Positions 1 through 36,483 of a stretch of DNA of 64,000 nt are shown piece after piece (the stretch's first letter is position 1; each line of letters opens with the position of its first letter). Where the stretch lies: positions 24,012 to 88,011 of the forward strand of contig SUUM01000003.1 of NCBI GenBank assembly GCA_015062525.1, in the 5' to 3' direction. This DNA comes from Alphaproteobacteria bacterium. GTDB taxonomy: Bacteria > Pseudomonadota > Alphaproteobacteria > Rs-D84. A model generated the notes under the pieces. It was not told the DNA's origin. It saw only the letters and a list, made by a program, of their open reading frames with translations, and searched no databases. A program made the translations under genes and the position numbers.

Positions 1-249
1 GGGAAACTTAAATCTTTTATCGCCAAACTGTAACCAGAACAACAAATCATACGATGATTCCAAACCAAACGGCATCTTGTACTGATAATAAATTTTGAAC
101 GGCAATTTTATTCCATACCGGGCATATCGTTGTTCACTCTTCAACGCAGACGGCGGATTATATTCATATTCAAACGCAGACAATTCACGCAAAATATTTT
201 TACGCGCCACCACTAACTCTGCGTTTTCAAAATTTACCTTCTTATTCAT
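1..249 (-). CDS. Hypothetical protein, N-terminal fragment (gene continues past the window start); start overlaps the lolE stop (ATGAATAA)
   Basis: Open frame on the minus strand from an ATG at 249-247 (MNKKVNFENAELVVARKNIL...) running to the window edge. The 8-nt overlap with the lolE stop suggests translational coupling. No Walker A motif, so it is not LolD. Confidence 0.35.
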   Translation of the reverse strand, partial: MNKKVNFENAELVVARKNILRELSAFEYEYNPPSALKSEQRYARYGIKLPFKIYYQYKMPFGLESSYDLLFWLQFGDKRFKFP

Positions 250-1495
250 TTCTCAGCACCTCGACCGGGTCTGTGTTTGCCGCCTTCCATGCTGGGTACA
301 GTGTTGCCAAAAACGCCAACAACACCGCAATCATGGCAATTCCCAACACATCTGTCCAAACCAACTTGGACGGCAATTCTGACAAATAATACAATTCCGC
401 TGGGAACAAATCACGCCCCGTAATCCATTGAAAGAACTGACGAATTGGTTCTATATAAATTGCAACCAGCACCCCAAATATCGTCCCAAAGAACGCACCA
501 ATCACCCCAATGGATGTGCCTGATAAAATAAATATCTTCATCATAGACTTGCGCGACACACCGAACGTACGCAGCACCGCAATATCTTTGTTTTTATCTT
601 TGACCAACATAACCAACGACGACACAATATTAAACGCCGCCACAATTACAATCAGCAACAAAATTAAAAACATAACATTTGATTCCACCTGCAATGCCCC
701 AACGAACCCACGGTTCAAATCGCGCCAATCACGCACCACAAAGCCATCTGGCAACAAACGCGCCAAACTTTCGACGACCGCCGTTGTATCTTCTGGATTA
801 TCCAAGAATAAATCAATATGGGTTACACTGTTTCCAATATTCAAATACTTCTGTGCGGTTTCCAACGGCATGAATATATACCCAGAATCATATTCATACA
901 TCCCCATAAAGAAAGAACTCATCACCGGGTACGACATAATCCGTGGCATAGAACCGAATGGTGTTGGTGTTGCATTATTGGCGGACACCAATGAAATACT
1001 GTCCCCCATACCAACACGCAAAGCCCGTGTAAGCGACGCCCCCGCCACCAATTCACCATCTGTTATCGCCGATAAATCCTTGCCATAGATACGCGTACCT
1101 GTCTTGGTCTTTTCCACCAAATCAGACATTCGAATACCGCGCACCATGGCACCTGTATTATTTCCATTGGCGGTTGCCATAACCTGACCCTCGGCAATTG
1201 GCACAATAGACACAACGCGTTGTGCAACGGCCTTGTTCTGCCGCATTTTATCAATCAAGAAATCAAAGTCAGAAATCGCACCATCCTGATGATACACGAC
1301 AACATGCCCGTTCATTCCAACGATACGTCCCAGCAACGTGTCATGAAAACCACCCATAACAGACATCACCACAATCAGTGTTGCCACCCCCAACATAATA
1401 CCAATCAGCGACACCCACGAAATCACAGAACCAAATCCGCGCTTTTTCGCACCCAAATATCTAAAAGCAATCTTTCTTTCTAACCTTGAAAACAT
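242..1495 (-). CDS. lolE: Lipoprotein-releasing system permease LolC/LolE (FtsX-like ABC permease with a MacB-type periplasmic domain)
   Basis: 417 aa. N-terminus MFSRLERKIAFRYLGAKKRGF...SLIGIMLGVATLIVVMSVMGGF, a large periplasmic domain, and a C-terminal FtsX 3-TM bundle: all typical of the LolC/E family. Confidence 0.85.
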   Translation of the reverse strand: MFSRLERKIAFRYLGAKKRGFGSVISWVSLIGIMLGVATLIVVMSVMGGFHDTLLGRIVGMNGHVVVYHQDGAISDFDFLIDKMRQNKAVAQRVVSIVPIAEGQVMATANGNNTGAMVRGIRMSDLVEKTKTGTRIYGKDLSAITDGELVAGASLTRALRVGMGDSISLVSANNATPTPFGSMPRIMSYPVMSSFFMGMYEYDSGYIFMPLETAQKYLNIGNSVTHIDLFLDNPEDTTAVVESLARLLPDGFVVRDWRDLNRGFVGALQVESNVMFLILLLIVIVAAFNIVSSLVMLVKDKNKDIAVLRTFGVSRKSMMKIFILSGTSIGVIGAFFGTIFGVLVAIYIEPIRQFFQWITGRDLFPAELYYLSELPSKLVWTDVLGIAMIAVLLAFLATLYPAWKAANTDPVEVLRNE

Positions 1496-1507: not shown

Positions 1508-2836
1508 TTAGTCCTGTAAAAAATCCCGCAACGCATCCCCAATCAGTTCATTTGACTGTTCGATACCCGCATTATCTGCGATTGAAATCACCCGTGGCGA
1601 CATAAACACCACCAGTTCTGCAAACGGCGACACCAATGTTTCCGGTGTTGTTACAAACGAATGTGTCGGAATACCGATAATTACATAGTTATCACCAACG
1701 GTTGATGGGATATTAAACGAACTCAGTTCACCCTGGCTGGTGCGCAGAACAATCTTGGCATCAATTTTGTCGCGTCCGCCAAAGTCCCCATATGTCCCGG
1801 TCGCCCCAACAACCAAATCTGTTTCCAATCTTTCTTCGCGCCCACATTGACCAATATCAAACCGCGACTGCCAACCATTTGGAATTGCAAACGTCCCTTG
1901 GGAAATCAGAACAACATTCGCCTGTTGTCCTAAAAATTCCTGTAATGTTTTTGTGTTAATTTCTGGCCCCACGACAAGTGCGCGCCCAACAACACCCGGG
2001 ATTGACATTTTAATATTCTTTTCCCCAAACGCAGGCAACAAATTCATCCACACAATCGGATTGTCCGTCCGTGGATACACACGATACACATCAATATCCC
2101 ACGCCAACATATATTTCTTGCCTGAAATATCTGCGATTATTTTCGCGACTTCGCGTTCTGTCTGATAATTACCCTCGAACACAACGGTTTTGTCCGCCCA
2201 ATCGACCAACAAATTACGCATATCCGCCCCATGCATCGCATCCAGCAATGCCATAATTATCGTCTGGTCCTGGGGCATTTTAATCAGCCACTTTGCCCGA
2301 TGCGACAAATTCAATTCACCATTTTGCGCATCGTACGAATAGTACACACGTCCCATCTTGGTCATTAATTCAACCGCATCTGACAAATCCCCCGATGAAA
2401 TAGTCCCCGTGATTTTTTCATACAATGCGCCCTGTTCCACCACAGCAATATCGGTTCCATCCAATAATTTATCCAGCGCATTTTTCACCGTCAAATCCTT
2501 GAATTCATAATCAGAAACTTGTAATTCCGGCAACGCGTCGCCCGCCCCCAATCGTACCATTTCGATATGTTCCGCTGGCACCACCGACACAACACTTTGG
2601 TTATCCCAGTCCACCTCGCACCGCATTGGCAATTCCACCGAGAATCGTCGCGCAGTATCCGTGGTCAACGCCGCTTTCTTTGGGAAAATCGGCACAGAAT
2701 TTTCATCAATTACCAAATCATCAACAACCGTGATATTGTCATACAACGGCATATTTTGTTGTTGCTGTTGTGCACATCCCACAACCAGCCCCACACAAAA
2801 TATCCCAATCAAACTTTTCATAAACTTCATTATCAT
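1508..2836 (-). CDS. Secretin-family outer-membrane lipoprotein (BfpB/TcpC/PilN-like small secretin)
   Basis: Signal peptide plus lipobox LVVGC. A strong AAGGAG RBS lies 5 nt upstream of the ATG. The C-terminal ~135 aa resemble the secretin domain (…LVVGATGTYGDFGGRDKIDAKIVLRT…GDNYVIIGIPTHSFVTTPE…ELVVFMSPRVI). N0/N1-like repeats lie upstream (FKDLTVKNALDKLLDGTDI…). Confidence 0.5.
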   Translation of the reverse strand: MIMKFMKSLIGIFCVGLVVGCAQQQQQNMPLYDNITVVDDLVIDENSVPIFPKKAALTTDTARRFSVELPMRCEVDWDNQSVVSVVPAEHIEMVRLGAGDALPELQVSDYEFKDLTVKNALDKLLDGTDIAVVEQGALYEKITGTISSGDLSDAVELMTKMGRVYYSYDAQNGELNLSHRAKWLIKMPQDQTIIMALLDAMHGADMRNLLVDWADKTVVFEGNYQTEREVAKIIADISGKKYMLAWDIDVYRVYPRTDNPIVWMNLLPAFGEKNIKMSIPGVVGRALVVGPEINTKTLQEFLGQQANVVLISQGTFAIPNGWQSRFDIGQCGREERLETDLVVGATGTYGDFGGRDKIDAKIVLRTSQGELSSFNIPSTVGDNYVIIGIPTHSFVTTPETLVSPFAELVVFMSPRVISIADNAGIEQSNELIGDALRDFLQD

Positions 2837-2881: not shown

Positions 2882-3205
2882 TCAGATATTCATTACCCTT
2901 TCAAATTCTTCCAGCGTCATTTCATGAATTGGCTTTTGCGACGGTGTCGTCAAATCACGCACGCGTTCAAACTGCGCCGCAAATCGATTAACCAATGCAA
3001 CAATTTCCGCACCAACGTTTTTATTTTGTTCTATCAATCTGCGTCCATATTCGACAACATATTCCAACACATCCGCCATATAGAACCGCCCAACATAGTT
3101 TTCCATTGCAATTCCGCCCTTTTGCACACATATCGCCGACATCAGCATAGCGGTCTGATTGTAATAATTTGCCAATTTAATAAATTGTTGCACAGTAATT
3201 GCCAT
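2882..3205 (-). CDS. Hypothetical protein (107 aa)
   Basis: ORF between the secretin-like gene and a divergent lipoprotein gene. No recognisable motif. Confidence 0.4.
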   Translation of the reverse strand: MAITVQQFIKLANYYNQTAMLMSAICVQKGGIAMENYVGRFYMADVLEYVVEYGRRLIEQNKNVGAEIVALVNRFAAQFERVRDLTTPSQKPIHEMTLEEFERVMNI

Positions 3206-3282
3206 GGGCGTTGTTCCTTCTCTCTTTTTTCATATTATAAAAACTATTGCCCCCCAAACGCAATTAAATTATAATATAAAAC

Positions 3283-3669
3283 ATGAGAATAAATTTTCCA
3301 ACAATCTTGGTATCAATTTTCTTGGCGTCCTGCGCATCTGTCAACCGTGGCAGCATTGATGACGCAACTGTCCTGAACTGGGAAAACGAAGCGGTCACCA
3401 CCGAACAATTCGTTCGCGACCACAAAGCATGCCTTGGGATAACCAAGCCATCGCACCAGCCACGTTCCCGTATTGCAAAATTAATCGCCCCGAACCAGGC
3501 CGCAATTATGCCCGACTGGGATGGACTGTGGGTTACATTTCAGTCAAACGAATATCGCGACGTGGGCCAGCGCAGTTTAATGTCCGTTCCCCGCAATACC
3601 ACATCTAAATCGGTTGGCGCATACCGCAAATGTATGTTTCGACGTGGGTATTTATTGCGCGCTATGTAA
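3283..3669 (+). CDS. Hypothetical lipoprotein (128 aa)
   Basis: Signal peptide with lipobox (MRINFPTILVSIFLASCAS). Followed by a hairpin terminator. Confidence 0.5.
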   Translation: MRINFPTILVSIFLASCASVNRGSIDDATVLNWENEAVTTEQFVRDHKACLGITKPSHQPRSRIAKLIAPNQAAIMPDWDGLWVTFQSNEYRDVGQRSLMSVPRNTTSKSVGAYRKCMFRRGYLLRAM

Positions 3670-4053: not shown

Positions 4054-5823
4054 ATGTTATCTTTGAAATCAAAGTACAGAACGCATACATGTGGTGAACT
4101 GAACACATCTAATGTGGGCGAAAGTGTTGTTTTATCGGGTTGGGTACATCGCAAACGCGACCACGGGTCATTGATGTTTATTGACCTGCGTGATAATTAC
4201 GGTATTACCCAGGTGGTTTTTGACGGTGGTAACGAGGCGTTGGAAAAAGTACGCCCGGAATCCGTGATTAAGGTTGTTGGCACGGTTGTTGCGCGTGATA
4301 CGTCGGCCGTCAATGATAAAATTCCAACCGGTGGTATTGAAATTCAGGCAGAATCTTTCGAGGTTTTAACAAACGCAGACATCTTGCCATTCCAGGTATT
4401 TGGCGACGATGATTCTGTTGCCGAAGATTTAAGATTAAAATATCGCTATATCGATTTAAGACGCGAAAGTCTGCACAAAAACATTTTGTTCCGTAATCGG
4501 GTAATGAAATATATTCGTGATAAAATGTGGGACATGGGCTTTTCAGAATTTCAGACACCTATTTTGACCGCGTCATCGCCAGAGGGCGCACGCGACTTTA
4601 TCGTCCCCAGCCGCAATCATCATGGGATGTTCTATGCCCTGCCCCAGGCACCACAGCAGTTTAAGCAGTTTATTCAGATTTCTGGATTTGACCGCTATTT
4701 CCAGATTGCGCCATGTTTCCGCGACGAAGATTTGCGTGCGGACAGATTGCTGGAATTTTATCAGTTGGATTTGGAAATGTCGTTTGTGGACCTGCCAGAC
4801 ATTCAGGCCGTCGGTAATAAATTAATGCCGGAAATGATACGCGAATTTGTGCCTGGCGCAAAAATATGTCCAGAAATTCCACACATCCCATTTGACGAAG
4901 CGATGCTGAAATATGGTTCAGATAAACCTGATTTGCGTAATCCAATTATTATTCATGACGTGACGGAAATTTTCCGCGGGTCTGATTTTGGTATTTTTGC
5001 AAATGCCATTGAAAATGGTGCCGTTGTGCGTGCAATCCCGGCACCAAATTCTGCGGATAAACCACGTTCTTGGTTTGATAAATTGGGCGAATTTGCGGTT
5101 AAAGAATTGGGCCTGGGTGGATTGGGCTATATCGTGTTCGCCGAAGAAGCCAAGGGACCAGTTGCGAAAAAGTTAGATGCGGGGCGCATCGCAAAGTTGC
5201 GCGAAATCGCAGGTGATAATTCATCATTGTTCTTTGTTTGTGATGAAAAAAATACCGCAGCCAAGGCCGCCGGTAAATTGCGCAATAAATTGGGCGATGA
5301 TTTGGGCCTAATTGACCCAAAAGAATTTAGATTCTGTTGGATAGAAGAATTCCCATTTTTTGAAGCGGACGAAGAATCACCAACGGGTATTGCATTTACG
5401 CATAATCCGTTCTCGTTCCCGATGGCAACACTGGAAGAATTGAATACAAAAAATCCTTTGGAAATCAAGGCTGCGCAATTTGACATGGTGTTAAATGGTG
5501 CGGAAATCTGCAGTGGTGGCTTGCGAAACTTTAACCCACAGGTTATGTTAAAATGCTTTGACATCACCGGGTACAGCGAAGATGTGGTCAAGGAAAAGTT
5601 CGGTGGTATGTACACCGCATTCCAATACGGTGCGCCACCACACGGTGGTTGTGCGTTCGGTTTGGACAGATTGGTTCAAATTATGCTGGATGAACCAAAC
5701 CTGCGCCAGGTTGTGATTTTCCCAACCAATCAACGCGGGCAAGACCTGATGATGGGGGCACCAACAACTGTAACAGAAAAGCAGTTGCGTGAAGTACACA
5801 TTCAGGTTCGCAAAAAGAACTAA
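4054..5823 (+). CDS. aspS: Aspartate--tRNA ligase
   Basis: 589 aa. Class II aaRS motifs present (…FYALPQAPQQFKQ…, GGCAFGLDRLV). N-terminal anticodon-binding OB fold. Terminator hairpin at 5826-5850. Confidence 0.95.
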   Translation: MLSLKSKYRTHTCGELNTSNVGESVVLSGWVHRKRDHGSLMFIDLRDNYGITQVVFDGGNEALEKVRPESVIKVVGTVVARDTSAVNDKIPTGGIEIQAESFEVLTNADILPFQVFGDDDSVAEDLRLKYRYIDLRRESLHKNILFRNRVMKYIRDKMWDMGFSEFQTPILTASSPEGARDFIVPSRNHHGMFYALPQAPQQFKQFIQISGFDRYFQIAPCFRDEDLRADRLLEFYQLDLEMSFVDLPDIQAVGNKLMPEMIREFVPGAKICPEIPHIPFDEAMLKYGSDKPDLRNPIIIHDVTEIFRGSDFGIFANAIENGAVVRAIPAPNSADKPRSWFDKLGEFAVKELGLGGLGYIVFAEEAKGPVAKKLDAGRIAKLREIAGDNSSLFFVCDEKNTAAKAAGKLRNKLGDDLGLIDPKEFRFCWIEEFPFFEADEESPTGIAFTHNPFSFPMATLEELNTKNPLEIKAAQFDMVLNGAEICSGGLRNFNPQVMLKCFDITGYSEDVVKEKFGGMYTAFQYGAPPHGGCAFGLDRLVQIMLDEPNLRQVVIFPTNQRGQDLMMGAPTTVTEKQLREVHIQVRKKN

Positions 5824-13497: not shown

Positions 13498-16400
13498 ATG
13501 AAACATAATATCCTAATGGGTATATCTGTACTACCTGCCCTGTTGGTTATGCCGGCATTTGCCGACACAATCACCGCACGCCAGGTTATAACCACAAACA
13601 CAACATACAACAATCTAACCGCATCCAATATTGCATCCACCACGGCAAATAACGGCGGTGTATTTTATATGGAAAACGTGCCTACAACAACATTAACCTT
13701 TGATGGCACCAGTACCTTTTCAAACAACAGTTTGAATAACGGCGGTATGGGTGGCGCAATTGGAAACGGTTGGTTATCATCCACATCTGGCACCGGCTTT
13801 ACCCCCGGCGGTAAAATCTTATTTAATGGTGATGCCACATTTTCATCTAACACGACCAACAATCCAAACGGTGGTGGCGCAATATTTAATTATGGCAATG
13901 GCACATCCAGCAACCCGGATATAAAATTTAGCGACAATGCAACATTTATAAAAAATGCCGCCAACGGCACATCAAACAACAGTGTATTTTCTGGTGGTGG
14001 CGCAATAAACAACCGTGGTGGCACAATTATTTTTGATGACGAAGCAACATTTTCGGACAACACGTCATCTTATCGTGGTGGCGCGATTTTATCAGGTGGC
14101 GACATAATATTCAATGACACAGCAACATTTTCTGGCAACACAGCCACGACCAGCGGTGGCGCAATTACAATTCTGGGTGGCAATGTACAATTTGCAGACG
14201 ATGCCACATTTACCGGGAACACGGCTGGTGCCGGCGCAGCAATATTTTTAGACAATGCGAACACTCAACTGACCTTTGCGGATACAGCCACATTTTCATC
14301 CAACACCGGCACAGGTATTTTATTAAACAACAATGCATCTAGCACGGTATCTTTTGCCAATGGTGCAACATTTGACCGCAACACCAATCCATCGAACGGA
14401 GCATTGGTCAACACCGGCACAGTAAATGGGACCGGTGGCGACTTTATATTTACCAACAACACAGGCAGTAATGGTGGCGGTCTAAAAAACGCAGGCACCG
14501 TATCAATTGATACATCTGGGCGCATTTTATTTGACACCAACACCACCACCAGCACGGCTGGCGCGCTGGACAATGGTGGCGCGATAACTATGAAATCGGG
14601 CAACATTTCATTTACTAATAACAAATCGAATGCGGGCTATAGCGGGGCAATATTCAACGCGGGCGACCTTAGCCTTTTAGGTGCAACAAACACTTTCTCT
14701 GGCAACATCGCATCCGACACAGGTGCCACAAGCAGTGGTGGTGGCGCAATCCACAATCGTGGCAATTCTGGCACATCAACATTAATCATCGGCACACAAT
14801 CCAGCACAAACACATTTACATCTAACACATCCAGCGCACATGGCGGCGCAATTTTGTCACGTGCATTTAACGGGGCATCCCATGATTCAATTATCACTGT
14901 AAACGGCACAAGCGCATTTCGCAACAACAATGCAGCTTTCAATGGTGGTGCAATCTTGAATGTCACATCAAACGATGGTGGGGTCTCGGAAATAACATTC
15001 AACGGCAACACCTCATTTACAAACAATACTGCTGGCGGTATGGGTGGCGCAATCTATAACAATGACACCATCACCTTTAACGGCAACGCTAATTTTTCTG
15101 GCAACACGGCCGGTGGCACCGCAAATGACATCTATAACGATGGCACAGTGAACATGAACGGCAACACAACAATTGCGGGTGGCATAACAGGCAACGGCAC
15201 ATTAAATGTCGCAAGTGGTAAAACATTGAATATCGGCACAGCCACCCTGACCCAGGGCGCAGTCAACCTGGACGGCACTTTGCTTGCAACACTTCGCACC
15301 GGCAACACCGCCCAAATTAACGTCGCCAACGCGGGCGGCTTTACAGGCACCGGCAACATCAAATTATCCTTTGATTCTGCGGGCACCTATCGTGTATTCG
15401 GCAACGAAACATTTGATAACACAGACATCACCAGTTCGGTCTATGACCTGACCTGGAATGGCGGGGACGTTGTTGCAACGATTAAGTCCGTTGCAGACAT
15501 TGCATCTGAAAACAACCTGTCCAATGATGCGGCACGCACGGTTTCAAACGTATCACAATCATCTTCCAGTCGTTTGAACGACCTGTCTGTTTTAATGCAG
15601 GAAAACCTGTCCACCGGGACCCAGGCTGGACGCGACGCAGTTGAACACGCCGCCCGCGCAATCAATCCAGAAATCGCCCCAATCAACCACTCAATCAATG
15701 CATCATCTCAAAACACATTGTATCAATTGGCAACCGTGCGCTTGAATGAATTCGGCATGGGTCGCAATGGTGGCGACACAACGGTTGACCTTGGTGGCAT
15801 CTGGGCCCAGGGGCTGTATAACAAATCAAAACTGAACGACAGTTTTAACGGGTACACTCGTGGAATATCGGTTGGTTTTGATGGCACAGTGAACAACATC
15901 TTGACGTTGGGTATGGGTTATATGTACGGACATTCAGACATCGGCGCCATTGCCCGCAATACCGAAGTTGACTCACACTCAGTCTTTGCCTATGGTCAAT
16001 ATAAACCCAGCAATTGGTATATGAATGCGATTGTAAATTATACAATGTCCGATTATTCGGAACGCGGCGATGCGTTGGGCGTTTATGTATCAGGGGACTA
16101 TGACCTGAATGCATTTGGCGCGGCTGCAACCATTGGCTATGACTTTATTGGTGGCATAACACCAGAAATGTCGGTTCGGTATCTGCACATTGGTTCTGCG
16201 GAATACACAAATTCATTGGGCATCCGCAACAAAATTGATGGCACAGATTACATGACCGCATCCATTGGCACGCGGTATGGATTCGATATGCTGTTAAACA
16301 ACGGTTGGGTGCTGCGTCCACAAATGCACTATGCATTAAAATACGACCTGATATCAGACGACGGTCGCATCACGGTTGCGATGCCTGGCATCAGCGCGTA

Positions 16401-16560
16401 CAGCCTGGACGGCGAATCATTGTCGCGCATTGCGAACGAAATAGGCATTGGAATTGGCATGACGTACGGCGCATTGAACATGTCATTAAATTATGACATC
16501 GAAGCCCGTGCCGACTACACATCCCAAACCGGCCGTGTAAAATTCAGATATGAATTTTAA
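13498..16560 (+). CDS. Autotransporter (type Va) with a passenger domain built from Pmp-type GGAI/FxxN repeats and a C-terminal 12-strand beta-barrel
   Basis: 1020 aa. Signal peptide MKHNILMGISVLPALLVMPAFA. More than 20 repeats of the pattern (F[ST][GDN]N[TS]…GGAI). C-terminus ends …RVKFRYEF (terminal aromatic). Confidence 0.85.
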   Translation: MKHNILMGISVLPALLVMPAFADTITARQVITTNTTYNNLTASNIASTTANNGGVFYMENVPTTTLTFDGTSTFSNNSLNNGGMGGAIGNGWLSSTSGTGFTPGGKILFNGDATFSSNTTNNPNGGGAIFNYGNGTSSNPDIKFSDNATFIKNAANGTSNNSVFSGGGAINNRGGTIIFDDEATFSDNTSSYRGGAILSGGDIIFNDTATFSGNTATTSGGAITILGGNVQFADDATFTGNTAGAGAAIFLDNANTQLTFADTATFSSNTGTGILLNNNASSTVSFANGATFDRNTNPSNGALVNTGTVNGTGGDFIFTNNTGSNGGGLKNAGTVSIDTSGRILFDTNTTTSTAGALDNGGAITMKSGNISFTNNKSNAGYSGAIFNAGDLSLLGATNTFSGNIASDTGATSSGGGAIHNRGNSGTSTLIIGTQSSTNTFTSNTSSAHGGAILSRAFNGASHDSIITVNGTSAFRNNNAAFNGGAILNVTSNDGGVSEITFNGNTSFTNNTAGGMGGAIYNNDTITFNGNANFSGNTAGGTANDIYNDGTVNMNGNTTIAGGITGNGTLNVASGKTLNIGTATLTQGAVNLDGTLLATLRTGNTAQINVANAGGFTGTGNIKLSFDSAGTYRVFGNETFDNTDITSSVYDLTWNGGDVVATIKSVADIASENNLSNDAARTVSNVSQSSSSRLNDLSVLMQENLSTGTQAGRDAVEHAARAINPEIAPINHSINASSQNTLYQLATVRLNEFGMGRNGGDTTVDLGGIWAQGLYNKSKLNDSFNGYTRGISVGFDGTVNNILTLGMGYMYGHSDIGAIARNTEVDSHSVFAYGQYKPSNWYMNAIVNYTMSDYSERGDALGVYVSGDYDLNAFGAAATIGYDFIGGITPEMSVRYLHIGSAEYTNSLGIRNKIDGTDYMTASIGTRYGFDMLLNNGWVLRPQMHYALKYDLISDDGRITVAMPGISAYSLDGESLSRIANEIGIGIGMTYGALNMSLNYDIEARADYTSQTGRVKFRYEF

Positions 16561-16569
16561 TCTTTCTTG

Positions 16570-16601
16570 AAAACAACCGCCCAAATGGGCGGTTGTTTTT
16601 T
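16570..16601. terminator. Bidirectional hairpin terminator (aacaaccgcccaaatgggcggttgtt) between the autotransporter and the convergent small gene
   Basis: 11-bp stem flanked by an A-run and a T-run. Confidence 0.6.
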
Positions 16602-16610
16602 CAAAACACT

Positions 16611-16862
16611 TTAACGCTTCTTTTCAGCACACATTAAACCAATAACACCCGCACTCATCATCGCTATTGCGGTCAACGCCATATCCTTTATCTTTTTTTC
16701 ACTCATAACTTCCTTCTCATAACGAGCCCGTGTTTCCGCATCAGAATCCTTTAACTCATCACGAAAATCCGCATTTCCAGATGCCGCCAACGCCAGCATA
16801 AAACCAACACCAACAGACATAATAGATAAATTTCTTAACAAAGCCCTTTTCTTTTTATTCAT
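16611..16862 (-). CDS. Small secreted/membrane hypothetical protein (~83 aa from MNKKKRALL…)
   Basis: Signal-peptide-like N-terminus (LLRNLSIMSVGVGFMLALAASGNA) and a C-terminal hydrophobic segment. The longer ORF extends to 16925, but the internal ATG gives the signal peptide. Confidence 0.4.
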   Translation of the reverse strand: MNKKKRALLRNLSIMSVGVGFMLALAASGNADFRDELKDSDAETRARYEKEVMSEKKIKDMALTAIAMMSAGVIGLMCAEKKR

Positions 16863-17042
16863 ATGTAATCCATTTTGTTCAACATCATGCAATAAAATTT
16901 TTGCATAAAAAGTATCGTCAAGCAAAAGTTTTTCTCAAAAAACATTAATATCTTGCGCACAAAAAATATTTTTGTTACAATATCATCACATATAAATGAT
17001 TAAATTTACTACAAAACCTTAGAACTAACAAGGAGATTTTAA

Positions 17043-17492
17043 ATGGCAGAAAACACTAAGAAACCAACAATAAGCCCATCAGAATATCTTTTCATGCAAA
17101 AAGCAAAACGATTTCATGAAGGATTAAATTTTCTTTCTACATCAAATATTCTTTCCACAATGACCGAAGAACAAGTAACAAACATAACAAAACATACATT
17201 TAGTAACTTGTTGAACGACCTTAAAAGTATTCCAGACACCATAATTACCTTTGAACCGGTAACCGGCACAAACCATTTAAACATGTCAATAAAATCTAAA
17301 GGCTCTTCAGCAAAGCTATTAAGCATCGGCCCCAAAGGCGGAATAATTTTAGGCGATAAACTAATTATGGATTCCTATACCAACAGGGAAGATTTGGCTC
17401 TACACAAATCTCTCCATAACGAAGCAATGAAAATATACAATACAAATTTCACAATATATCAGGCAAAAAAACTTCATAATATAAACAGATAA
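17043..17492 (+). CDS. Hypothetical protein (149 aa), AT-rich island gene
   Basis: ORF with AGGAG RBS (caaggagattttaaATG). Own terminator at 17494-17522. No motif recognised. Confidence 0.5.
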   Translation: MAENTKKPTISPSEYLFMQKAKRFHEGLNFLSTSNILSTMTEEQVTNITKHTFSNLLNDLKSIPDTIITFEPVTGTNHLNMSIKSKGSSAKLLSIGPKGGIILGDKLIMDSYTNREDLALHKSLHNEAMKIYNTNFTIYQAKKLHNINR

Positions 17493-17633
17493 AAAATGCC
17501 CCCTACGGGCATTATTTATTTTGGTTGTGCTCGTCATGCAATTCGCGAACTGAATTGGTAGATATTGGGCAAGAAATAATAGATTTTAAACATATTTCTA
17601 TGATATAATTGCAAACATATAAAAGGAGAAGAC

Positions 17634-19202: not shown

Positions 19203-19343
19203 AAATAAATTCAAACTCACCATCTTGGTGAGTTATTTATTTTCGCCCATGCACCACAACCACTTTGAACGATAATATCTGGCAGGGCGGGTTATTGTTA
19301 TAAAAATAATCTTTTTACTAGTCCGAAAGTAAAAAAGCCTTTC

Positions 19344-20444: not shown

Positions 20445-20479
20445 TATAAGACCTTTTATTACAATATTAGCAAAACCAG

Positions 20480-31796: not shown

Positions 31797-32900
31797 TTAC
31801 GATAATGCGGACGTGATTTGGTCCTGCATCTGAAACGTCCCAAGCACCACCCAAGCGATTATGGCGGACACCAATAAAATCCCCAAACTGTTTAATGTAT
31901 TTGAAATCTTTTCCATCTTGCGCACAGACTCGTTCAAATAATCGTTTGCAACTTGATTCAGATTTTCATCAAACTCATTCATATCGGCATAAATTGTTAA
32001 ATCCCCAATAATTTCAGAATCTGGGAAATCGCGCCCGGTATGCGCCAATGCCCGCCCCAAGTTTTCCCCATTTGCGATATATTTTAATGCGCGTTCCAGA
32101 ATACTTTTCAAATATCTGTTCGCGCTATCCGCCAACATTCGCATAGCATCCGGGATTGCAACACCGGCACTTACCATTGCACCCAAACTCATCAGCCAAC
32201 CAACAGACACCTGAATTTTATACACACTCCACGGGGGTAATTTATCAAACATCGCACGCAGGCGCCCCGACCAGTTGGCCAGACTGACCCACACAACGGC
32301 AATTACCGATGCAAACACCACCAGGAAAATATACCAATACCGAATTGAAACATCAGACAACCACACCAAAGACTGCGCCGTCCCGCGCCAAACAACATCG
32401 CTGCCTGCGATTTCCGCCAATGGTGGCACCAAATATAATCCCACCATAATGATGATACCAAACGTTAACGCCAATAAAAACAGTGGATATCCAATCGCAG
32501 ACGTCATTGCCCGTCTGATACGTTGTGTACCATCAACCACACGTCCAACGTTTTCAAGTGCGACCACCAAATTAGATAAATTACCACTGGTCACCAACAG
32601 TGTTTCATTTTCCGGCACCCAACCACGTGTTGCCTCGGAAAAACTCATACCACGTTCCAGGTTTTTTTGCCATTCGCGCATAACAATTGCAAACGGTTCG
32701 CGCGGTTTTGTCCCCCCATGCGATTCAATCATTTCCAAACGTTCCAGCGCATCAATCAGCGTGAAATCATTACGCAACAAGGATGCCAATTTTCTACAAA
32801 TTGACATACGTTTTTCCGTATTCATCCGGAACATTAACTTGGCATATAATAATTCCAATTTATTCATATCAATATGCCCCCGGCTGGTCCAGTTGTCCAA
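31797..32900 (-). CDS. GspF/PilC-family inner-membrane platform protein (T2SS-F domain, 3 TM; BfpE/TcpE-sized)
   Basis: 367 aa. Two cytoplasmic ~130-aa helical domains, each followed by TM segments. Overlaps the upstream ATPase gene by 32 nt. Confidence 0.6.
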   Translation of the reverse strand: MDNWTSRGHIDMNKLELLYAKLMFRMNTEKRMSICRKLASLLRNDFTLIDALERLEMIESHGGTKPREPFAIVMREWQKNLERGMSFSEATRGWVPENETLLVTSGNLSNLVVALENVGRVVDGTQRIRRAMTSAIGYPLFLLALTFGIIIMVGLYLVPPLAEIAGSDVVWRGTAQSLVWLSDVSIRYWYIFLVVFASVIAVVWVSLANWSGRLRAMFDKLPPWSVYKIQVSVGWLMSLGAMVSAGVAIPDAMRMLADSANRYLKSILERALKYIANGENLGRALAHTGRDFPDSEIIGDLTIYADMNEFDENLNQVANDYLNESVRKMEKISNTLNSLGILLVSAIIAWVVLGTFQMQDQITSALS

Positions 32901-34503
32901 CCCAGCGTTCTAATTCATCAACACTAATTACACCTTGCAACATTAACGACACGGCGGCCTCTTTTAGCGTACGTCCATCCATTTCTTCTAACCAATAACG
33001 CACCGCCCCATCTGTATTACCTGATAATGCCAGACGCAAAAATTCACTGTTTGTGATGATAATTTCACCCGCTTTGACACGCCCAATATTGCCTGTACCA
33101 TTACAATGCGCGCATCCCGCACCACGTTGATATACCTGGCGCAGACCAACATCACCATACGCATCCATAACACGACGATACGCACCACGTTCTGGGTGAT
33201 TTGCCAATGGTTCGCGACAATGTGGACAAACCTTTTTGAACAGACGCATAGACACCAATCCACGCATCAATGTTTCTTCTTTTAATTTAAAGGATTCAAC
33301 CCCTAAATCCAACAATCGTGTCAGGGCCGCCATGGCTGAATTAGCATGCAATGTTGTCCAAACATTATGCCCCGACAACGCGCCACGCACGGTTAATTCC
33401 GCCGCCGCCAACGTACGAATTTCCCCCACCATAAGCGTATCAGGGTCGCTGCGCAACGCCGCCGCCAAGGCTTCGACATACTTTTCTTCACGTTGTTCTT
33501 CATTGGTTGCATTAACAACCGGCATCTGACGTGCGCCAAAAATCTTTTGTTCAACGGGGTTTTCCACCGTAATCATATTAATTTCATAGTTGCGTTCTTT
33601 CAGCATCAACGACATATTGCGTACCAACGTCGTTGACTTACCAGAACTGGTCGGCCCCGCCACAATCACCAAACCCGTCGGAAAGGAACGCATACGTGCC
33701 AACAAACGCTGTTCATAGGGGCCAAATTCTTGTTCAACCTTGATCCCTTCGGACGGATTATCATACAACAATCGCATAACCGCATATCGCGTACCAAACG
33801 CGATTGGGTTAAACTGCATACGCACGCCCAACACCCCCGATGGCAGGTATAAATCCTTGGTTCCACGCAATGGTGTACGACCATCCTTTTGCGCAGATTG
33901 ATATTCATTTACCGCATAGTTCGCATTGGAAATATCCGCCGATGCAAATGCTGCGCGCAGGAACGATTCCCCCCATTGGGAATTATATTCCATAACGGGC
34001 TGCATACTGCCGTCTATGCGGAAATATATTGTTGTCTGGTCTGCGACTTCGACATGAACGTCTGACACTTTTTGTGCGGCGGCCTTGGCGATAATATCAA
34101 CAAAATCCTTTTGCATCTGGTTATCAAAGTCCGCACGTCCGCGCCCTGCCCCCCCCAGATGACTTTCATATGATTTATAAATATGTGAAATTAATCCCAG
34201 GTCCGAATAAAACGGTTCACGCATTTTGCGATTACGTTTTTTCAGCAACTCTAAAAACGCCAGCACCCGTCCATCATATCGATGTGTACGCGATATAATA
34301 ATTTCCCCACCGGAAAAATACGCAACCAAACCCTGCGTATCATGTGGCAATTCAAACATTGCCCCGGTCGCGGTCAACAAACGATTTCCATTAGAAAACA
34401 AATAATCAATAATATCTTTGGAATCTGCACTTTCCAGTCCCGCCGGAATTGACGGCATACTTTGAAATTTGATATTATCAAAATCACTTGTTTTATTTGG
34501 CAT
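32869..34503 (-). CDS. GspE/PilB-family secretion/pilus-assembly ATPase with a C-terminal tetracysteine zinc motif
   Basis: Walker A GPTSSGKSTT, Asp/His boxes (…DPDTLMVGEIR…, VWTTLHANSA), and CPHC…CAHC zinc-knuckle motifs. Confidence 0.85.
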   Translation of the reverse strand: MPNKTSDFDNIKFQSMPSIPAGLESADSKDIIDYLFSNGNRLLTATGAMFELPHDTQGLVAYFSGGEIIISRTHRYDGRVLAFLELLKKRNRKMREPFYSDLGLISHIYKSYESHLGGAGRGRADFDNQMQKDFVDIIAKAAAQKVSDVHVEVADQTTIYFRIDGSMQPVMEYNSQWGESFLRAAFASADISNANYAVNEYQSAQKDGRTPLRGTKDLYLPSGVLGVRMQFNPIAFGTRYAVMRLLYDNPSEGIKVEQEFGPYEQRLLARMRSFPTGLVIVAGPTSSGKSTTLVRNMSLMLKERNYEINMITVENPVEQKIFGARQMPVVNATNEEQREEKYVEALAAALRSDPDTLMVGEIRTLAAAELTVRGALSGHNVWTTLHANSAMAALTRLLDLGVESFKLKEETLMRGLVSMRLFKKVCPHCREPLANHPERGAYRRVMDAYGDVGLRQVYQRGAGCAHCNGTGNIGRVKAGEIIITNSEFLRLALSGNTDGAVRYWLEEMDGRTLKEAAVSLMLQGVISVDELERWVGQLDQPGAY

Positions 34504-34508
34504 ATTGA

Positions 34509-35186
34509 TTATTTCCCACTGCTGACATTCAAATTCTGTGTTACGCCGTCTTTGTCAACGAACACAACACCATCATACAATGATATAGATTTCACCGTTA
34601 ACCCATCCAACGACTTTCCAACACTAATACGCTTAGATTGGCCTGTATTTAAATCTTCCACAGTCGCCTGTAATTGTGAGCCCGCCCCAACAACATTAAC
34701 CAAACGATATTTTTTTGTAATATCAATTTCCGGTTCTTCTTCTGCGGCTTCGGGCACAGACATGGCCTTTGCCATCTTTTGTTCTTCTATATTTGCTAAC
34801 CAAGATTCCTTTTCTTGTTCGATACGCGCGGCCTCGGCCTCTAACTTGGCCTTTTGTGTTTCAATTTCCTGTTGTTGCTGTTCTGCACGTCCCGACAAAG
34901 TATCAATTTCCATATGCAACTTGATTTTTTCGGCCGCTAATCTGTCCAATTCTAAATCCAATTGGGCGCGTTCCTTTTCCAATTGCATAAGAACCTTTTC
35001 CTGTTCCAAATCAGTAATTTGTTGGAACAGCGACCCCGACACATCATAACCAGCGACCGCATCCGCCGATACTTCTTCCATATCGACATCAACTTCTACA
35101 ACTTCATCTACTGCGGCAAACGCGCTTGAAACCGCACCACAAAAAATCAACCCCAATAAAAACATTTTCTTATTTTGCATAGACAA
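34509..35186 (-). CDS. Periplasmic coiled-coil protein (GspM/PilO-like by position), signal or anchor at the N-terminus
   Basis: 225 aa. Hydrophobic N-terminus MFLLGLIFCGAVSSAFA, then a long heptad-repeat region (LEQEKVLMQLEKERAQLDLELDRLAAEKIKL…). Confidence 0.5.
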   Translation of the reverse strand: MSMQNKKMFLLGLIFCGAVSSAFAAVDEVVEVDVDMEEVSADAVAGYDVSGSLFQQITDLEQEKVLMQLEKERAQLDLELDRLAAEKIKLHMEIDTLSGRAEQQQQEIETQKAKLEAEAARIEQEKESWLANIEEQKMAKAMSVPEAAEEEPEIDITKKYRLVNVVGAGSQLQATVEDLNTGQSKRISVGKSLDGLTVKSISLYDGVVFVDKDGVTQNLNVSSGK

Positions 35187-36483
35187 TCACCTCATAGTTC
35201 CAAGAACGCGAACGCACATCCCATGATGCCTGCATCATATATACGCCGCCAAATTCATCAAATATTTTCATAAACTGCATCGGCACCAGTTTTGATTCCG
35301 CGCCAACCTCTACCACATTAACAGACGCAGTATCAACCCCGTTTGTTAACGTATCAACAACAACCAAAGTTTCAACATTTGTATCAATTCCCTGAAATGC
35401 AGTCGTAATATCACGCACAACCGTATCTGGGTCGCGTTCATCCTGGGACGAAAACACTTCCAATGTCGGCAGGGTTGCCCGCACACGAATTGTATCTTCA
35501 TCAATTTCACTTACAAAGGCCCCCGGCATCAACTGTGTTGCAATATTATAAAATTCACCAATTGTTCCAAAACTGCGAACAAATTCCGCCACAACATGCG
35601 TTTCGCCACAGGTTGCATAAACCTGATTCCAACCTGCAATCGGTTGCATAACAAAACCAATTGCCTGATAACATTGTTCTGCCCGCGCCATCACATCCGG
35701 CAACAATTCATACGGCATAACAATTGGCTCGGGCGGTAATTCTTTTTCTATTTCAAACTGCTCGTCTAACTTTTTGCTGCTTTCTTCTATCTGACGTTTA
35801 TATTCCGCCACCAATTCTGGATCCAATTCTGCCACTTTTGGGCGCGGACTAAGTGTCTGAACAATAGAATCATGAAATATCAGCGCCAATCCAAAAATAA
35901 ACACCCCAATCAGAACAGCGGACACCATCCCCGCACCAAAGCGACTGATTGAATGTAATACAACATTATTGCGTGCCACCAACAAATCCGCAAGATTACG
36001 TTCCGCCGCCCGCGGCATACCCCACGCACCTGGTGCAAAAAACGCCCCCCAGTCTGGAATTTCTGATAACTTGACATATTCCTTGCGTGCTTCGTCTTCG
36101 GATTCGAACACACTGTCTTCCAGAATAATTCCATTACGTGCCGCGACTAAATAGAATTTTTTTCCCATCGCAAACACCGCCAAAAAAGATGTATATTCTG
36201 AAAAACTGTTCATCACGGCAACGGCGGCAACATGCATTCCCGCCCGCACACCATTTTTACGCGCCGCCAACCCAACCATTTCGCGGTATTCAGTATATAA
36301 ACTTAATTTTTTATCAATATTACGCGACAAATTGCGTGCATAATTGCGCGCAGTAAATCCCGCAGAAACAGGTTGCCAAAACAACCCGACCGCATACTTC
36401 TTACGATTAACAGATATAGTCTGACTGGCCAAGTAAATTCTCTCTCTGAATATTCTGTTGTAAATTATAACACAAAATCCCAA
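35170..36483 (-). CDS. Bitopic inner-membrane assembly protein (GspL/BfpC-like topology: ~190-aa cytoplasmic domain, 1 TM, ~220-aa periplasmic domain)
   Basis: 437 aa with a single central TM (MVSAVLIGVFIFGLALIF). First gene of a four-gene overlapping operon ending with the GspF-like gene. Confidence 0.45.
   Translation of the reverse strand: MGFCVIIYNRIFRERIYLASQTISVNRKKYAVGLFWQPVSAGFTARNYARNLSRNIDKKLSLYTEYREMVGLAARKNGVRAGMHVAAVAVMNSFSEYTSFLAVFAMGKKFYLVAARNGIILEDSVFESEDEARKEYVKLSEIPDWGAFFAPGAWGMPRAAERNLADLLVARNNVVLHSISRFGAGMVSAVLIGVFIFGLALIFHDSIVQTLSPRPKVAELDPELVAEYKRQIEESSKKLDEQFEIEKELPPEPIVMPYELLPDVMARAEQCYQAIGFVMQPIAGWNQVYATCGETHVVAEFVRSFGTIGEFYNIATQLMPGAFVSEIDEDTIRVRATLPTLEVFSSQDERDPDTVVRDITTAFQGIDTNVETLVVVDTLTNGVDTASVNVVEVGAESKLVPMQFMKIFDEFGGVYMMQASWDVRSRSWNYEVIVYAK

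What the first reader, a model, noticed from the sequence alone, without database searches (positions are those of the whole stretch)
1508..2836. Orphan secretin-like lipoprotein next to lolE, about 29 kb from the ATPase/platform operon
The C-terminal third carries secretin-domain hallmarks (…GDNYVIIGIPTHSFVTTPE…ELVVFMSPRVI), and the protein is lipidated like the pilotin-independent T4bP secretins BfpB/TcpC/PilN(R64). It sits between lolE and aspS with no other secretion genes nearby, so the system's parts are scattered in the way rvh genes are scattered in Rickettsiales. It could be the outer-membrane conduit for the operon at 31.8-36.5 kb.
Basis: partly seen in the sequence, partly recalled or inferred. 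Interest (0 to 1): 0.55.

Follow-up and report, generated by a model that had tools for sequence, protein, structure and literature searches.

The report
Gate-less secretin-like lipoprotein family
This gene encodes an outer-membrane lipoprotein that descends from pilus secretins but has lost the loops that normally close the channel; it defines an undescribed, strongly conserved family in tiny-genome gut Alphaproteobacteria, and its link to the nearby pilus-motor operon is plausible but unproven.

Summary
The ORF at 1508-2836 (-), 442 aa, is real. It has a lipobox and lies 12 bp upstream of lolE and about 29 kb from a PilO2-PilP-ATPase-platform operon. The organism is Candidatus Enterousia, order Rs-D84, with genomes under 1 Mb.

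No curated model calls it a secretin: Pfam Secretin hits 0 of 34 family members. Its distant relatives, however, are true STN+Secretin proteins. A profile-profile comparison aligns residues 82-423 with them end to end (probability 100%, E 2.5e-40). The closest solved relative of those proteins is the type IVb lipoprotein secretin BfpB. All structural matches of the AF2 model with E<=1e-3 are secretins, though global TM-scores are low (0.14-0.27).

Every family member lacks the segments that form gate 1 and gate 2 in BfpB, plus part of the lip and a C-terminal loop. Two cysteines are near-invariant.

The gene is not an orphan. A small cytoplasmic helical-domain protein (here 2882-3205) always precedes it, and in most other lineages a single-pass membrane protein follows it. 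No pilus ATPase or platform gene lies within 10 kb of it in about 160 loci.

Purifying selection is as strong as on lolE. The role as conduit for the pilus operon remains inferred. This is a new variant of a known kind.

The parts
1508..2836 (-). Gene for the 442-aa secretin-derived lipoprotein (whole ORF including the stop codon)
   Evidence: ORF. More than 1200 relatives, none with a Pfam domain. Homology to true secretins: hhalign E 2.5e-40. dN/dS 0.03-0.07.
2774..2836 (-). Signal peptide and lipobox (residues 1-21, Cys21)
   Evidence: Sequence read directly. The cysteine aligns in 140 of 151 family members.
2594..2773 (-). N-terminal tether (residues 22-81): a Gln-rich low-confidence linker, then short helices with the conserved LExPxRC motif that includes near-invariant Cys73
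   Evidence: pLDDT 41-56 for residues 21-60. C73 is present in 150 of 151 sequences. The analogy to the BfpB LG domain (PMC12531336) is inferred.
2279..2593 (-). N0/STN-like domain (about residues 82-186)
   Evidence: Weak Pfam STN hit, E 0.022, at residues 112-134. 5 of 34 members hit STN. The region aligns with the N0 of true secretins. Foldseek also matches XcpQ N0-N2 crystal structures.
2072..2269 (-). N3-like ring-building domain (about residues 190-255)
   Evidence: hhalign and MAFFT alignment to the BfpB N3 region. Helix-strand-strand-helix-strand order (H191-203, E210-212, E217-222, H224-239, E242-255) in the model.
1574..2071 (-). Reduced secretin domain (about residues 256-421). The outer-barrel strands, the amphipathic loop with invariant W263 and a short lip hairpin are kept. 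Gate 1, gate 2 with the next inner strand, and a C-terminal loop are deleted. Near-invariant Cys331 sits at the gate-1 deletion point.
   Evidence: Family-wide deletions with zero occupancy in 34 of 34 members. BfpB element ranges come from PMC12114550. W263 is present in 151 of 151 and C331 in 149 of 151 sequences.
1511..1573 (-). C-terminal helix (residues 422-442), present only in Enterousia and a few relatives
   Evidence: Predicted helix with pLDDT 46-62. Absent from most A1 members.
2882..3205 (-). Conserved upstream partner: a 107-aa protein with no signal peptide and no TM segment, carrying a roughly 70-aa helical 'X' domain
   Evidence: tblastn and HMM find it directly upstream of the homologue in every lineage, with 147 HMM hits. 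dN/dS 0.03-0.07. No TM segment. No Pfam or NCBIfam hit.
242..1495 (-). lolE (lipoprotein-release permease), 12 bp downstream and probably co-transcribed
   Evidence: MacB_PCD+FtsX. The adjacency is kept in 80 Enterousia loci and in 9 loci of a lineage at about 42% identity. No terminator-like site between the genes.
3206..3282 (.). Divergent intergenic region, the likely promoter region for the 107-aa gene, the lipoprotein gene and lolE
   Evidence: Promoter-like matches on the minus strand at 3301-3271 and 3344-3316. These are consensus matches only.
35170..36483 (-). PilO2-like alignment protein of a type IVb pilus machine (relatives are 420 aa, so the real start is probably about 17 codons into this ORF)
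   Evidence: Pfam PAP_PilO, 32.3 bits against a cut-off of 26.7. tblastn matches plasmid 'type 4b pilus protein PilO2'. NCBI uses the same name.
34509..35186 (-). PilP-family protein: signal/TM segment, coiled coil and a C-terminal beta domain
   Evidence: NCBIfam TIGR03021 pilP_fam, 35.6 bits against a cut-off of 34.65. One TM segment at residues 7-25.
32869..34503 (-). T2SSE-family assembly ATPase
   Evidence: Pfam T2SSE, E 1.8e-61, full length. GspE/PilB-like by NCBIfam. Walker A motif GPTSSGKST and the CxxC pairs were read in the sequence.
31797..32900 (-). T2SSF-family platform protein
   Evidence: Pfam T2SSF, E 3e-26. GspF/PilC-like by NCBIfam.

Best explanation
The gene encodes a strongly diverged member of the type IVb, self-piloting lipoprotein secretin lineage (BfpB/TcpC/PilN-like).

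Shown:
- It has a lipobox.
- It is homologous over N0, N3 and the whole secretin domain to true secretins.
- The entire family has lost the two hairpin tips that form the periplasmic gate, part of the lip, and the loop before the last strand.
- It keeps the outer-barrel strands, the amphipathic loop with an invariant Trp, and the terminal ELVVxxxPR strand.

Inferred:
- LolCDE, whose lolE gene is co-transcribed with it, releases the lipoprotein to the outer membrane, where the lipid anchors it.
- It oligomerises into a ring. The N0 domain of that ring is docked by the C-terminal domain of PilP from the PilO2-PilP-ATPase-platform operon, which lies 17-29 kb away in Enterousia genomes.
- The ring then acts as the outer-membrane conduit of a machine whose genes are scattered.
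- With no gate loops, the pore would have to be closed by the fibre itself, by a partner, or by the Cys73-Cys331 tether if these two near-invariant cysteines form a disulfide.
- The always-adjacent 107-aa cytoplasmic protein is an unexplained obligatory partner.
For: - Distant relatives found with the single sequence (E 1e-8 to 1e-4 over 1.8 billion proteins) are true Pfam Secretin+STN proteins.
- hhalign of the family against those secretins gives probability 100% and E 2.5e-40, over residues 82-423 versus 52-470. An independent MAFFT alignment gives the same gap pattern.
- BfpB is the top solved-structure match of the secretin profile (E 1.2e-35) and of the AF2 model (E 1.4e-9). All 23 structural hits with E<=1e-3 are secretins.
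- The model is confident: pLDDT 85.5 for the full length and 89.7 for the domain-only run.
- The operon passes the PAP_PilO and pilP_fam cut-offs. It matches the middle of a plasmid type IVb operon in which a secretin sits directly upstream of PilO2.
- This ORF is the only hit of the family (A1) and true-secretin (A2) HMMs in the 64-kb window.
- The target and the PilO2 operon lie on the same contig in at least 7 Enterousia species. One case was verified directly, with the two about 17 kb apart.
- dN/dS equals that of lolE.
Against: - Pfam Secretin hits 0 of 34 members, and NCBIfam secretin models do not hit this protein; only the window protein was scanned.
- Global TM-scores to secretin protomers are only 0.14-0.27. 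The domain-only model is compact (pTM 0.86), and its next-best matches are GFP-like barrels, so AF2 does not draw a canonical protomer.
- A homologue of the window's pilus ATPase, platform, PilO or PilP is never found by tblastn within 10 kb of a family member in about 160 loci.
- The conserved neighbours are unrelated proteins of unknown function.
- No pilin-type signal motif or prepilin peptidase was found in the window.
- Co-occurrence outside Enterousia could not be tested.
- The target family is broader than the PilO2 family by hit count (1223 against 669).
- An ungated secretin pore should be harmful to the cell.
Confidence: 0.45

Rival explanations
1. The protein is the outer-membrane component of a separate, undescribed envelope module that works independently of the pilus operon. 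The module consists of the cytoplasmic X-domain protein, this lipoprotein, and in most lineages a single-pass inner-membrane protein Y. It is often accompanied by giant acidic repeat proteins, a double-HTH regulator and multi-TM proteins.
For: - The X domain lies directly upstream in every lineage (147 HMM hits).
- Y lies directly downstream in 63 of the non-Enterousia loci.
- The HTH regulator, the giant soluble proteins of 1000-1300 aa and the multi-TM proteins recur upstream.
- No homologue of the window's pilus ATPase or platform protein lies within 10 kb in any locus.
Against: - No energy source (ATPase) is encoded in the module.
- X and the giant proteins have no signal peptide, so a route to the periplasm is unclear.
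- Y is absent from the window and from all 80 Enterousia loci, so the module is incomplete in this organism.
- This reading is not exclusive of the pilus reading: X and Y could be extra parts of the same machine.
Confidence: 0.3
2. The protein is a secretin-derived lipoprotein that no longer forms a large channel. After losing the gates it folds as a compact monomer or small oligomer, stabilised by a Cys73-Cys331 disulfide. It serves a structural, tethering or binding role at the inner face of the outer membrane.
For: - The AF2 models are compact and confident (pTM 0.77 and 0.86) yet do not superpose on ring protomers (TM <= 0.27). The next-best fold matches are closed beta-barrels.
- About 60-70 residues of the pore-forming domain are missing in all members.
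- Two cysteines are near-invariant, one in the N-terminal segment and one at the gate-1 scar.
Against: - The elements that secretins use for membrane insertion and for barrel edges are kept and conserved: the amphipathic loop with invariant W263, the lip hairpin and the terminal strand.
- Single-chain AF2 can fold an oligomeric beta-sheet back on itself.
- The coordinates could not be inspected, so the Cys-Cys distance is unknown.
Confidence: 0.15
3. The protein is an outer-membrane lipoprotein of the scattered rvh-like type IV secretion system. It would be analogous to N0-domain lipoproteins such as DotD or Xanthomonas VirB7.
For: - A VirB4-family ATPase is encoded at 43246-45669.
- In some non-Enterousia loci a multi-TM protein with a weak TrbL/VirB6 match lies in the same cluster.
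- N0-like folds in T4SS lipoproteins are mentioned in PMC12531336.
Against: - Homology extends through N3 and the whole secretin domain, not only N0.
- The TrbL match is below the Pfam cut-off (20.9 bits against 25.9) and was seen in one protein only.
- No VirB7, VirB9 or VirB10 genes are adjacent.
Confidence: 0.05
4. The resemblance to secretins is a chance match of two short motifs, and the protein is unrelated.
For: No curated HMM (Pfam Secretin, NCBIfam secretin models) and no PDB sequence search reports a hit.
Against: - phmmer reaches true secretins at E as low as 1.9e-8 over 1.8 billion proteins.
- hhalign gives E 2.5e-40 over 337 columns.
- Foldseek returns only secretins at E<=1e-3.
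Confidence: 0.02

Closest known systems
BfpB of EPEC (type IVb bundle-forming-pilus secretin; PDB 9u5s), with TcpC and R64 PilN as the same kind
   Same: - It is a lipoprotein with an N-terminal tether, then N0, N3 and a secretin domain, with no N1/N2 domains and usually no S domain.
- BfpB is the best solved match of the model and of the bridging secretin profile.
- It shares the terminal GDxxxxxG and ELVxxxxPR motifs.
   Different: - It has 442 aa against 552 (BfpB precursor).
- It lacks gate 1 (BfpB 406-430), gate 2 with the next inner strand (461-492), about 13 residues of the lip and about 15 residues before the last strand.
- Pfam Secretin does not detect it.
- It is not encoded next to PilO2 or a TcpQ/BfpG-type partner.
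- It carries two near-invariant cysteines.
Uncharacterised MshL/PilN-like secretins (alignment A2, e.g. P0212, P0216, P0221)
   Same: These are the nearest sequence relatives (E down to 1.9e-8). Their N0 and N3 domains and the start and end of the secretin domain align colinearly with the family.
   Different: - They pass the Pfam Secretin cut-off.
- They keep both gates.
- They have 460-740 aa.
- At least one sits directly upstream of the T2SSE and T2SSF genes.
Plasmid R64-type type IVb pilus operon (pilin-TcpQ-secretin-PilO2-PilP-ATPase-platform-PilT-peptidase)
   Same: The window's operon at 31797-36483 has the same order and similar sizes for PilO2, the small PilP-type protein, the ATPase (544 aa in both) and the platform protein.
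   Different: In the window the pilin, the TcpQ-type protein, the secretin, the retraction ATPase and the prepilin peptidase are not in the operon, and they were not found anywhere in the 64 kb.
Filamentous-phage pIV and type IVa PilQ secretin domains (PDB 7ofh, 6ve4)
   Same: These are the only structures that match the N3+secretin-domain model at E<=1e-3 (probability 0.99).
   Different: - TM is only 0.27 with rmsd 18-25 A.
- No relatives occur on viral contigs.
- No pIV-like match appears in BFVD.

Membership tests
Secretin superfamily (Pfam PF00263 Secretin) | Match to the Pfam Secretin HMM above the gathering score | tested here: not met
   No hit even at E<=10 for this protein. 0 of 34 family members hit at E<=1.
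Secretin superfamily (Pfam PF00263 Secretin) | Homology of the C-terminal domain to true secretin domains | tested here: met
   hhalign probability 100%, E 2.5e-40, running through to the terminal strand. MAFFT agrees. Foldseek probability 0.99-1.0, with secretins only.
Secretin superfamily (Pfam PF00263 Secretin) | N0 (STN-type) and N3 ring-building periplasmic domains | tested here: met
   STN is weak (E 0.022; 5 of 34 members). The region aligns colinearly with N0 and N3 of true secretins. XcpQ N-domain crystal structures are matched.
Secretin superfamily (Pfam PF00263 Secretin) | Inner barrel carrying gate 1 and gate 2 hairpins that close the channel | tested here: not met
   The segments that align to BfpB gate 1 and gate 2 are absent in all 34 aligned members.
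Secretin superfamily (Pfam PF00263 Secretin) | Protomer fold superposable on solved secretin protomers | tested here: inconclusive
Secretin superfamily (Pfam PF00263 Secretin) | Assembly into a 12-17-mer outer-membrane ring | not testable with these tools
Type IVb lipoprotein secretins (BfpB/TcpC/PilN) | N-terminal lipidation signal (self-piloting) | tested here: met
   Lipobox V-V-G-C21. The cysteine aligns in 140 of 151 members.
Type IVb lipoprotein secretins (BfpB/TcpC/PilN) | Match to NCBIfam TIGR02520 (PilN family) | tested here: not met
   No hit at E<=10. The bridging secretins do hit it, but below the cut-off.
Type IVb lipoprotein secretins (BfpB/TcpC/PilN) | Gene located in the pilus operon, next to PilO2 and a TcpQ/BfpG-type partner | tested here: not met
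   The gene lies 17-29 kb from the PilO2 operon in Enterousia and is never adjacent to it in about 160 loci. The neighbour Y shows no similarity to TcpQ or PilP.
Type IVb lipoprotein secretins (BfpB/TcpC/PilN) | Co-occurrence with type IVb assembly genes in the same genome | tested here: inconclusive
   Met within Enterousia, where both lie on the same contigs in at least 7 species.

The most novel reading that the evidence does not exclude
A lineage of secretins has been remodelled into something new. One possibility is a permanently ungated outer-membrane conduit. Another is a compact non-ring beta protein. Either would work with two undescribed partners, the cytoplasmic X-domain protein and the single-pass protein Y, as a new envelope module in transporter-poor gut symbionts with genomes under 1 Mb. 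Such a module might import or export macromolecules, including the giant acidic repeat proteins encoded beside it, rather than extrude a pilus.
Probability: 0.2. Interest if true: 0.8.

Novelty: new variant of a known kind. Interest (0 to 1): 0.6.

Why it matters
All structurally characterised secretins (T2SS, T3SS, type IVa/b/c pili, phage pIV) close their large pore with the gate 1 and gate 2 hairpins. A family that is clearly secretin-derived, lacks both gates in every member, and is kept under selection as strong as on lolE in genomes of about 900 genes is therefore informative. It would be either a natural experiment in how a secretin can work without a gate, or an example of a secretin domain put to another use.

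It also marks a gap in annotation. No curated HMM detects the family, so genome surveys score these bacteria as lacking a secretin. The Rs-D84 survey read here (PMC12306168) reports type IV pilus genes for another lineage but mentions none for Rs-D84. Yet these genomes carry an apparently intact PilO2-PilP-ATPase-platform block.

Finally, the conserved X and Y partners and the recurring lolE linkage give concrete candidates for how uncultured, transporter-poor gut Alphaproteobacteria interact with their surroundings.

Tried and rejected
- Direct searches with the single protein (Pfam, NCBIfam, PDB sequences) gave nothing significant. The family profile against PDB sequences also gave nothing.
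The narrower alignment returned only Enterousia, with the best 80 loci at 76-95% identity, so the genome scan gave no distant contexts.
- hhalign of the family against a single E. coli plasmid type IVb secretin gave only probability 4% in N0. A lone sequence is too weak a target, so this was not taken as evidence against homology.
- Protein Y was compared with TcpQ, plasmid PilP, the window's PilP and the 128-aa lipoprotein. No similarity was found (probability <= 1.1%).
- Phage origin was rejected: no relatives occur on viral contigs, and the gene sits among housekeeping genes in conserved positions.
- A regex for class III (prepilin) signal peptides found none in the window. Pfam on the remaining ORFs found only housekeeping genes.
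- Walking along long non-Enterousia contigs to look for a PilO2 operon was abandoned, because synteny with the window is almost absent there.
- The 107-aa partner was aligned but not modelled.
Full report
**Observation**

The minus-strand ORF 1508..2836 encodes 442 aa. Most relatives are 440 aa, so Met3 is the likely start.
- The N-terminus MIMKFMKSLIGIFCVGLVVGC|AQQQQQ has a lipobox, with Cys21 followed by Ala.
- lolE (242..1495; MacB_PCD+FtsX) begins 12 bp after the stop codon.
- Upstream, 45 bp away, is a 107-aa ORF (2882..3205, -). Then come a divergent 128-aa lipoprotein gene (3283..3669, +) and aspS (4054..5823).
- No terminator-like site separates the 107-aa gene, the lipoprotein gene and lolE.
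- At 31797..36483 (-) are four overlapping or abutting genes:
  - PAP_PilO, 32.3 bits against a cut-off of 26.7;
  - a 225-aa protein that passes NCBIfam TIGR03021 pilP_fam, 35.6 bits against 34.65;
  - a T2SSE ATPase, E 1.8e-61;
  - a T2SSF platform protein, E 3e-26.

The factual part of the finding is therefore correct.

**Organism**

Eighty genome loci with 76-95% identical orthologues come from MAGs named Candidatus Enterousia or 'Alphaproteobacteria bacterium', sampled from animal and human guts. Enterousia belongs to the uncultured order Rs-D84. Its genomes are about 0.75-1.0 Mb, lack flagella, the TCA cycle and respiration, and have few standard transporters (PMC12306168). The rest of the window is housekeeping: uvrB, gyrB, lpxC/K, fts genes, pheST, dnaG and topA. 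It also holds an autotransporter, a Fic protein and a VirB4-family ATPase.

**Is it a secretin?**

By curated models it is not.
- Pfam gives only a sub-threshold STN match (E 0.022, residues 112-134) and no Secretin hit at E<=10.
- NCBIfam and PDB sequence searches give nothing.
- 0 of 34 diverse family members hit PF00263 at E<=1, and 5 hit STN weakly.

Deeper comparison rescues it.
- An exhaustive phmmer search of 1.84 billion representatives finds only 140 relatives. The closer ones are mostly full-length proteins of about 390-470 aa (together with shorter fragments); none of the ten scanned reaches a Pfam gathering score.
- All ten distant relatives that were scanned (E 1.9e-8 to 8e-6) are true Secretin proteins, six of them also with a weak, sub-threshold STN match. 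One carries a fused TcpQ domain, and another is encoded directly upstream of T2SSE and T2SSF genes.
- A profile of 34 family members against a profile of 29 of those secretins gives hhalign probability 100% and E 2.5e-40. It aligns 337 columns, residues 82-423 against 52-470. That covers N0, N3 and the whole secretin domain down to the terminal ELVVxxxPR strand.
- The secretin profile's best solved relative is the type IVb lipoprotein secretin BfpB (E 1.2e-35).

**Predicted structure**

- AF2 with the 34-sequence alignment gives a confident model (pLDDT 85.5, pTM 0.77). Foldseek against the PDB returns 23 hits with E<=1e-3, all of them secretins. BfpB (9u5s) is first, followed by PilQ, InvG, GspD, pIV and the XcpQ N-domains.
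- The global TM-scores are only 0.14-0.24.
- A second model of residues 190-426 alone is even more confident (pLDDT 89.7, pTM 0.86). It still superposes poorly: only PilQ and pIV pass E<=1e-3, with TM 0.27, and the next matches are GFP-like beta-barrels at E about 1e-2.
- The local structural alphabet therefore says secretin, but AF2 does not draw a canonical ring protomer.

**What is missing**

BfpB's elements are published in precursor numbering (PMC12114550):

| Element | BfpB residues |
|---|---|
| Outer barrel | 307-392 and 495-545 |
| Inner barrel | 393-405, 431-460 and 480-492 |
| Gate 1 | 406-430 |
| Gate 2 | 461-479 |

The hhalign alignment and an independent MAFFT L-INS-i alignment of both families with BfpB place the same family-wide gaps. 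Occupancy there is zero in all 34 members and near-full in the true secretins.
- About 20 residues are missing at gate 1. The gap lies next to 'FDIGQC331GR' (after it by hhalign, a few residues further on by MAFFT).
- About 19-23 residues are missing, covering gate 2 and the following inner strand. The gap lies between 'GELSSF' and 'NIPS'.
- About 15-20 residues are missing in the loop before the last strand, the equivalent of the VPxLGDIPxLG region.
- About 13 residues are missing in the lip hairpin.

Retained elements are the outer-barrel strands, the amphipathic loop with Trp263 (151 of 151 sequences), a short lip hairpin, one inner hairpin and the terminal strand. Cys73, in the segment before N0, is present in 150 of 151 sequences. 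Cys331, at the gate-1 scar, is present in 149 of 151. That pattern suggests a conserved disulfide, but the model coordinates could not be inspected.

**Genomic context: not an orphan**

I examined 80 Enterousia loci, 72 metagenome loci of more distant relatives at 25-43% identity and five contigs fetched for individual representatives.
- The 107-aa protein's helical domain of about 70 aa ('X') is encoded directly upstream of the lipoprotein gene in every lineage, with 147 HMM hits. In other lineages it forms the C-terminus of soluble acidic proteins of 165-514 aa. It has no signal peptide and no TM segment.
- In 63 non-Enterousia loci the gene directly downstream encodes 'Y'. This is a single-pass membrane protein with a Pro-rich cytoplasmic part and a conserved two-cysteine periplasmic domain of about 100 aa. 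Y is absent from the window and from all Enterousia loci, even at HMM E<=10.
- In Enterousia and in one sister lineage at about 42% identity, lolE takes the downstream place instead.
- Many non-Enterousia loci also carry, further upstream, a double-HTH_3 regulator of about 330 aa, a soluble acidic repeat protein of 1000-1300 aa with no Pfam match, and one or two multi-TM proteins. One of the latter has a sub-threshold TrbL/VirB6 match.
- No homologue of the window's PilO2, PilP, ATPase or platform protein lies within 10 kb of a family member in any locus. Each locus holds a single secretin-like gene.
- No relatives occur on viral contigs.

**Selection**

Pairwise dN/dS between the window gene and nine Enterousia orthologues is 0.034-0.072. 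This equals lolE (0.029-0.068) and the 107-aa gene (0.028-0.071). The gene is functional and tightly constrained.

**The distant operon**

- The PilO-like protein matches plasmid 'type 4b pilus protein PilO2' over 95% of its length at 21-25% identity. NCBI names its Enterousia orthologues the same way.
- In an E. coli plasmid the gene order is pilin, TcpQ-domain protein, secretin, PilO2, a small protein, ATPase (544 aa), platform protein, PilT-like ATPase, A24 peptidase and transglycosylase.
- The window holds exactly the PilO2-to-platform block. It has an intact-looking ATPase, with Walker A, CxxC pairs and a full-length T2SSE match.
- There is no pilin, secretin, peptidase or retraction ATPase in the operon. 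There is no prepilin-type motif in the 64 kb.
- The same four-gene block, again without a secretin, is present in a divergent Enterousia species. There it lies about 17 kb from the lipoprotein gene on the same contig (JAZLDK010000052.1; loci L065 and L160).
- Unique contig lengths show that both genes share a contig in at least six further species.
- PilP-family proteins are the components that contact secretin N0 domains in related machines. This rests on established knowledge of GspC/PilP HR domains and was not tested here. The operon therefore implies a secretin partner, and this lipoprotein is the only hit of the family and true-secretin HMMs in the window.

**Interpretation**

- About 0.9 confidence: the protein is a diverged, lipidated descendant of type IVb-type secretins, and it defines an unannotated, gate-less family confined, as far as sampled, to Rs-D84-like gut Alphaproteobacteria.
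- About 0.45: it is the outer-membrane partner of the scattered PilO2-PilP-ATPase-platform machine.
- About 0.3: it belongs to a separate module with X and Y. The two readings are not exclusive.
- About 0.15: it has lost channel function and adopted a compact fold.
- About 0.05: it has a role in the rvh-like T4SS.
- About 0.02: the resemblance is chance. This is effectively excluded.

The linkage to lolE fits with its being a Lol substrate, but it may only reflect lineage-specific gene order.

**Comparison with known systems, and novelty**

The protein resembles BfpB, TcpC and PilN in lipidation, in the order N0, N3, secretin domain, and in lacking N1/N2 and usually an S domain. It differs in the following ways:
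- it lacks both gates;
- curated secretin models do not detect it;
- it is about 100 residues shorter;
- it has different conserved neighbours;
- it carries an invariant cysteine pair.

I found no description of the family. Source names are 'hypothetical protein'. The full-text searches turned up no paper whose title or abstract describes a gate-less secretin, and the Rs-D84 genome survey (PMC12306168) does not mention this protein or any Rs-D84 secretion system. I rate it a new variant of a known kind, with interest 0.6.

Noticed in passing
window 43246-45669 (-): A VirB4-family type IV secretion ATPase (TIGR00929, E 9.6e-111, below its cut-off) stands without recognisable VirB neighbours. 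It is followed by a 204-aa protein with an N-terminal TM segment. The arrangement recalls the scattered rvh genes of Rickettsiales.
   Followed up: partly
L096 5033-8872; L110 6226-9273 (and about 45 other non-Enterousia loci): Giant soluble proteins of 1000-1300 aa are encoded just upstream of the X gene and the secretin-like gene. They are very acidic, with Tyr-rich repeats of the type DGTPYYTDEEGRAYYYDEDGNAVYY. They have no signal peptide, no TM segment and no Pfam hit. Their function is unknown, and they could be cargo.
   Followed up: partly
L096 11200-12090; L083 4952-5809; L081 1470-2471; L084 2063-2629: Protein 'Y' has a Pro/Gln-rich cytoplasmic part, one TM segment and a conserved periplasmic domain of about 100 aa with the motif RCGxxxxxxGC. 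It always lies directly downstream of the secretin-like gene outside Enterousia. It shows no similarity to TcpQ or PilP and matches no family.
   Followed up: partly
L110 1778-4870; L096 502-1953 and 2176-3744: Multi-TM proteins with 6-8 hydrophobic segments recur upstream of the double-HTH regulator in the same clusters. One has a sub-threshold TrbL/VirB6 match (E 3.4e-4).
   Followed up: partly
window 21919-23697 (-): A single 592-aa ORF combines an FtsA/PilM-type actin-like region (residues about 183-327) with a complete ribulose-phosphate 3-epimerase domain (residues 391-573). This is either an unusual fusion or a mis-joined ORF.
   Followed up: no
window 16000-20500: A low-GC stretch (0.32-0.38 against about 0.43 elsewhere) lies between the end of a 1020-aa autotransporter gene (13498-16560) and a Fic/DOC protein gene (19344-20444). 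It holds a 277-aa ORF with no family match and may be an acquired island.
   Followed up: no
window 3283-3669 (+): A 128-aa lipoprotein gene is divergently transcribed from the operon containing the 107-aa gene, the secretin-like gene and lolE. It is conserved at that position in 78 of the 80 Enterousia loci and was not found in the loci fetched from other lineages. It matches no family, and its relation to the module is unknown.
   Followed up: partly
window 36732-37727 (-): A 331-aa predicted outer-membrane beta-barrel protein, ending in ...LRFEF, lies directly upstream of PilO2 in this strain. It is absent from that position in a divergent Enterousia species (L160), so it is probably not part of the operon.
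   Followed up: partly
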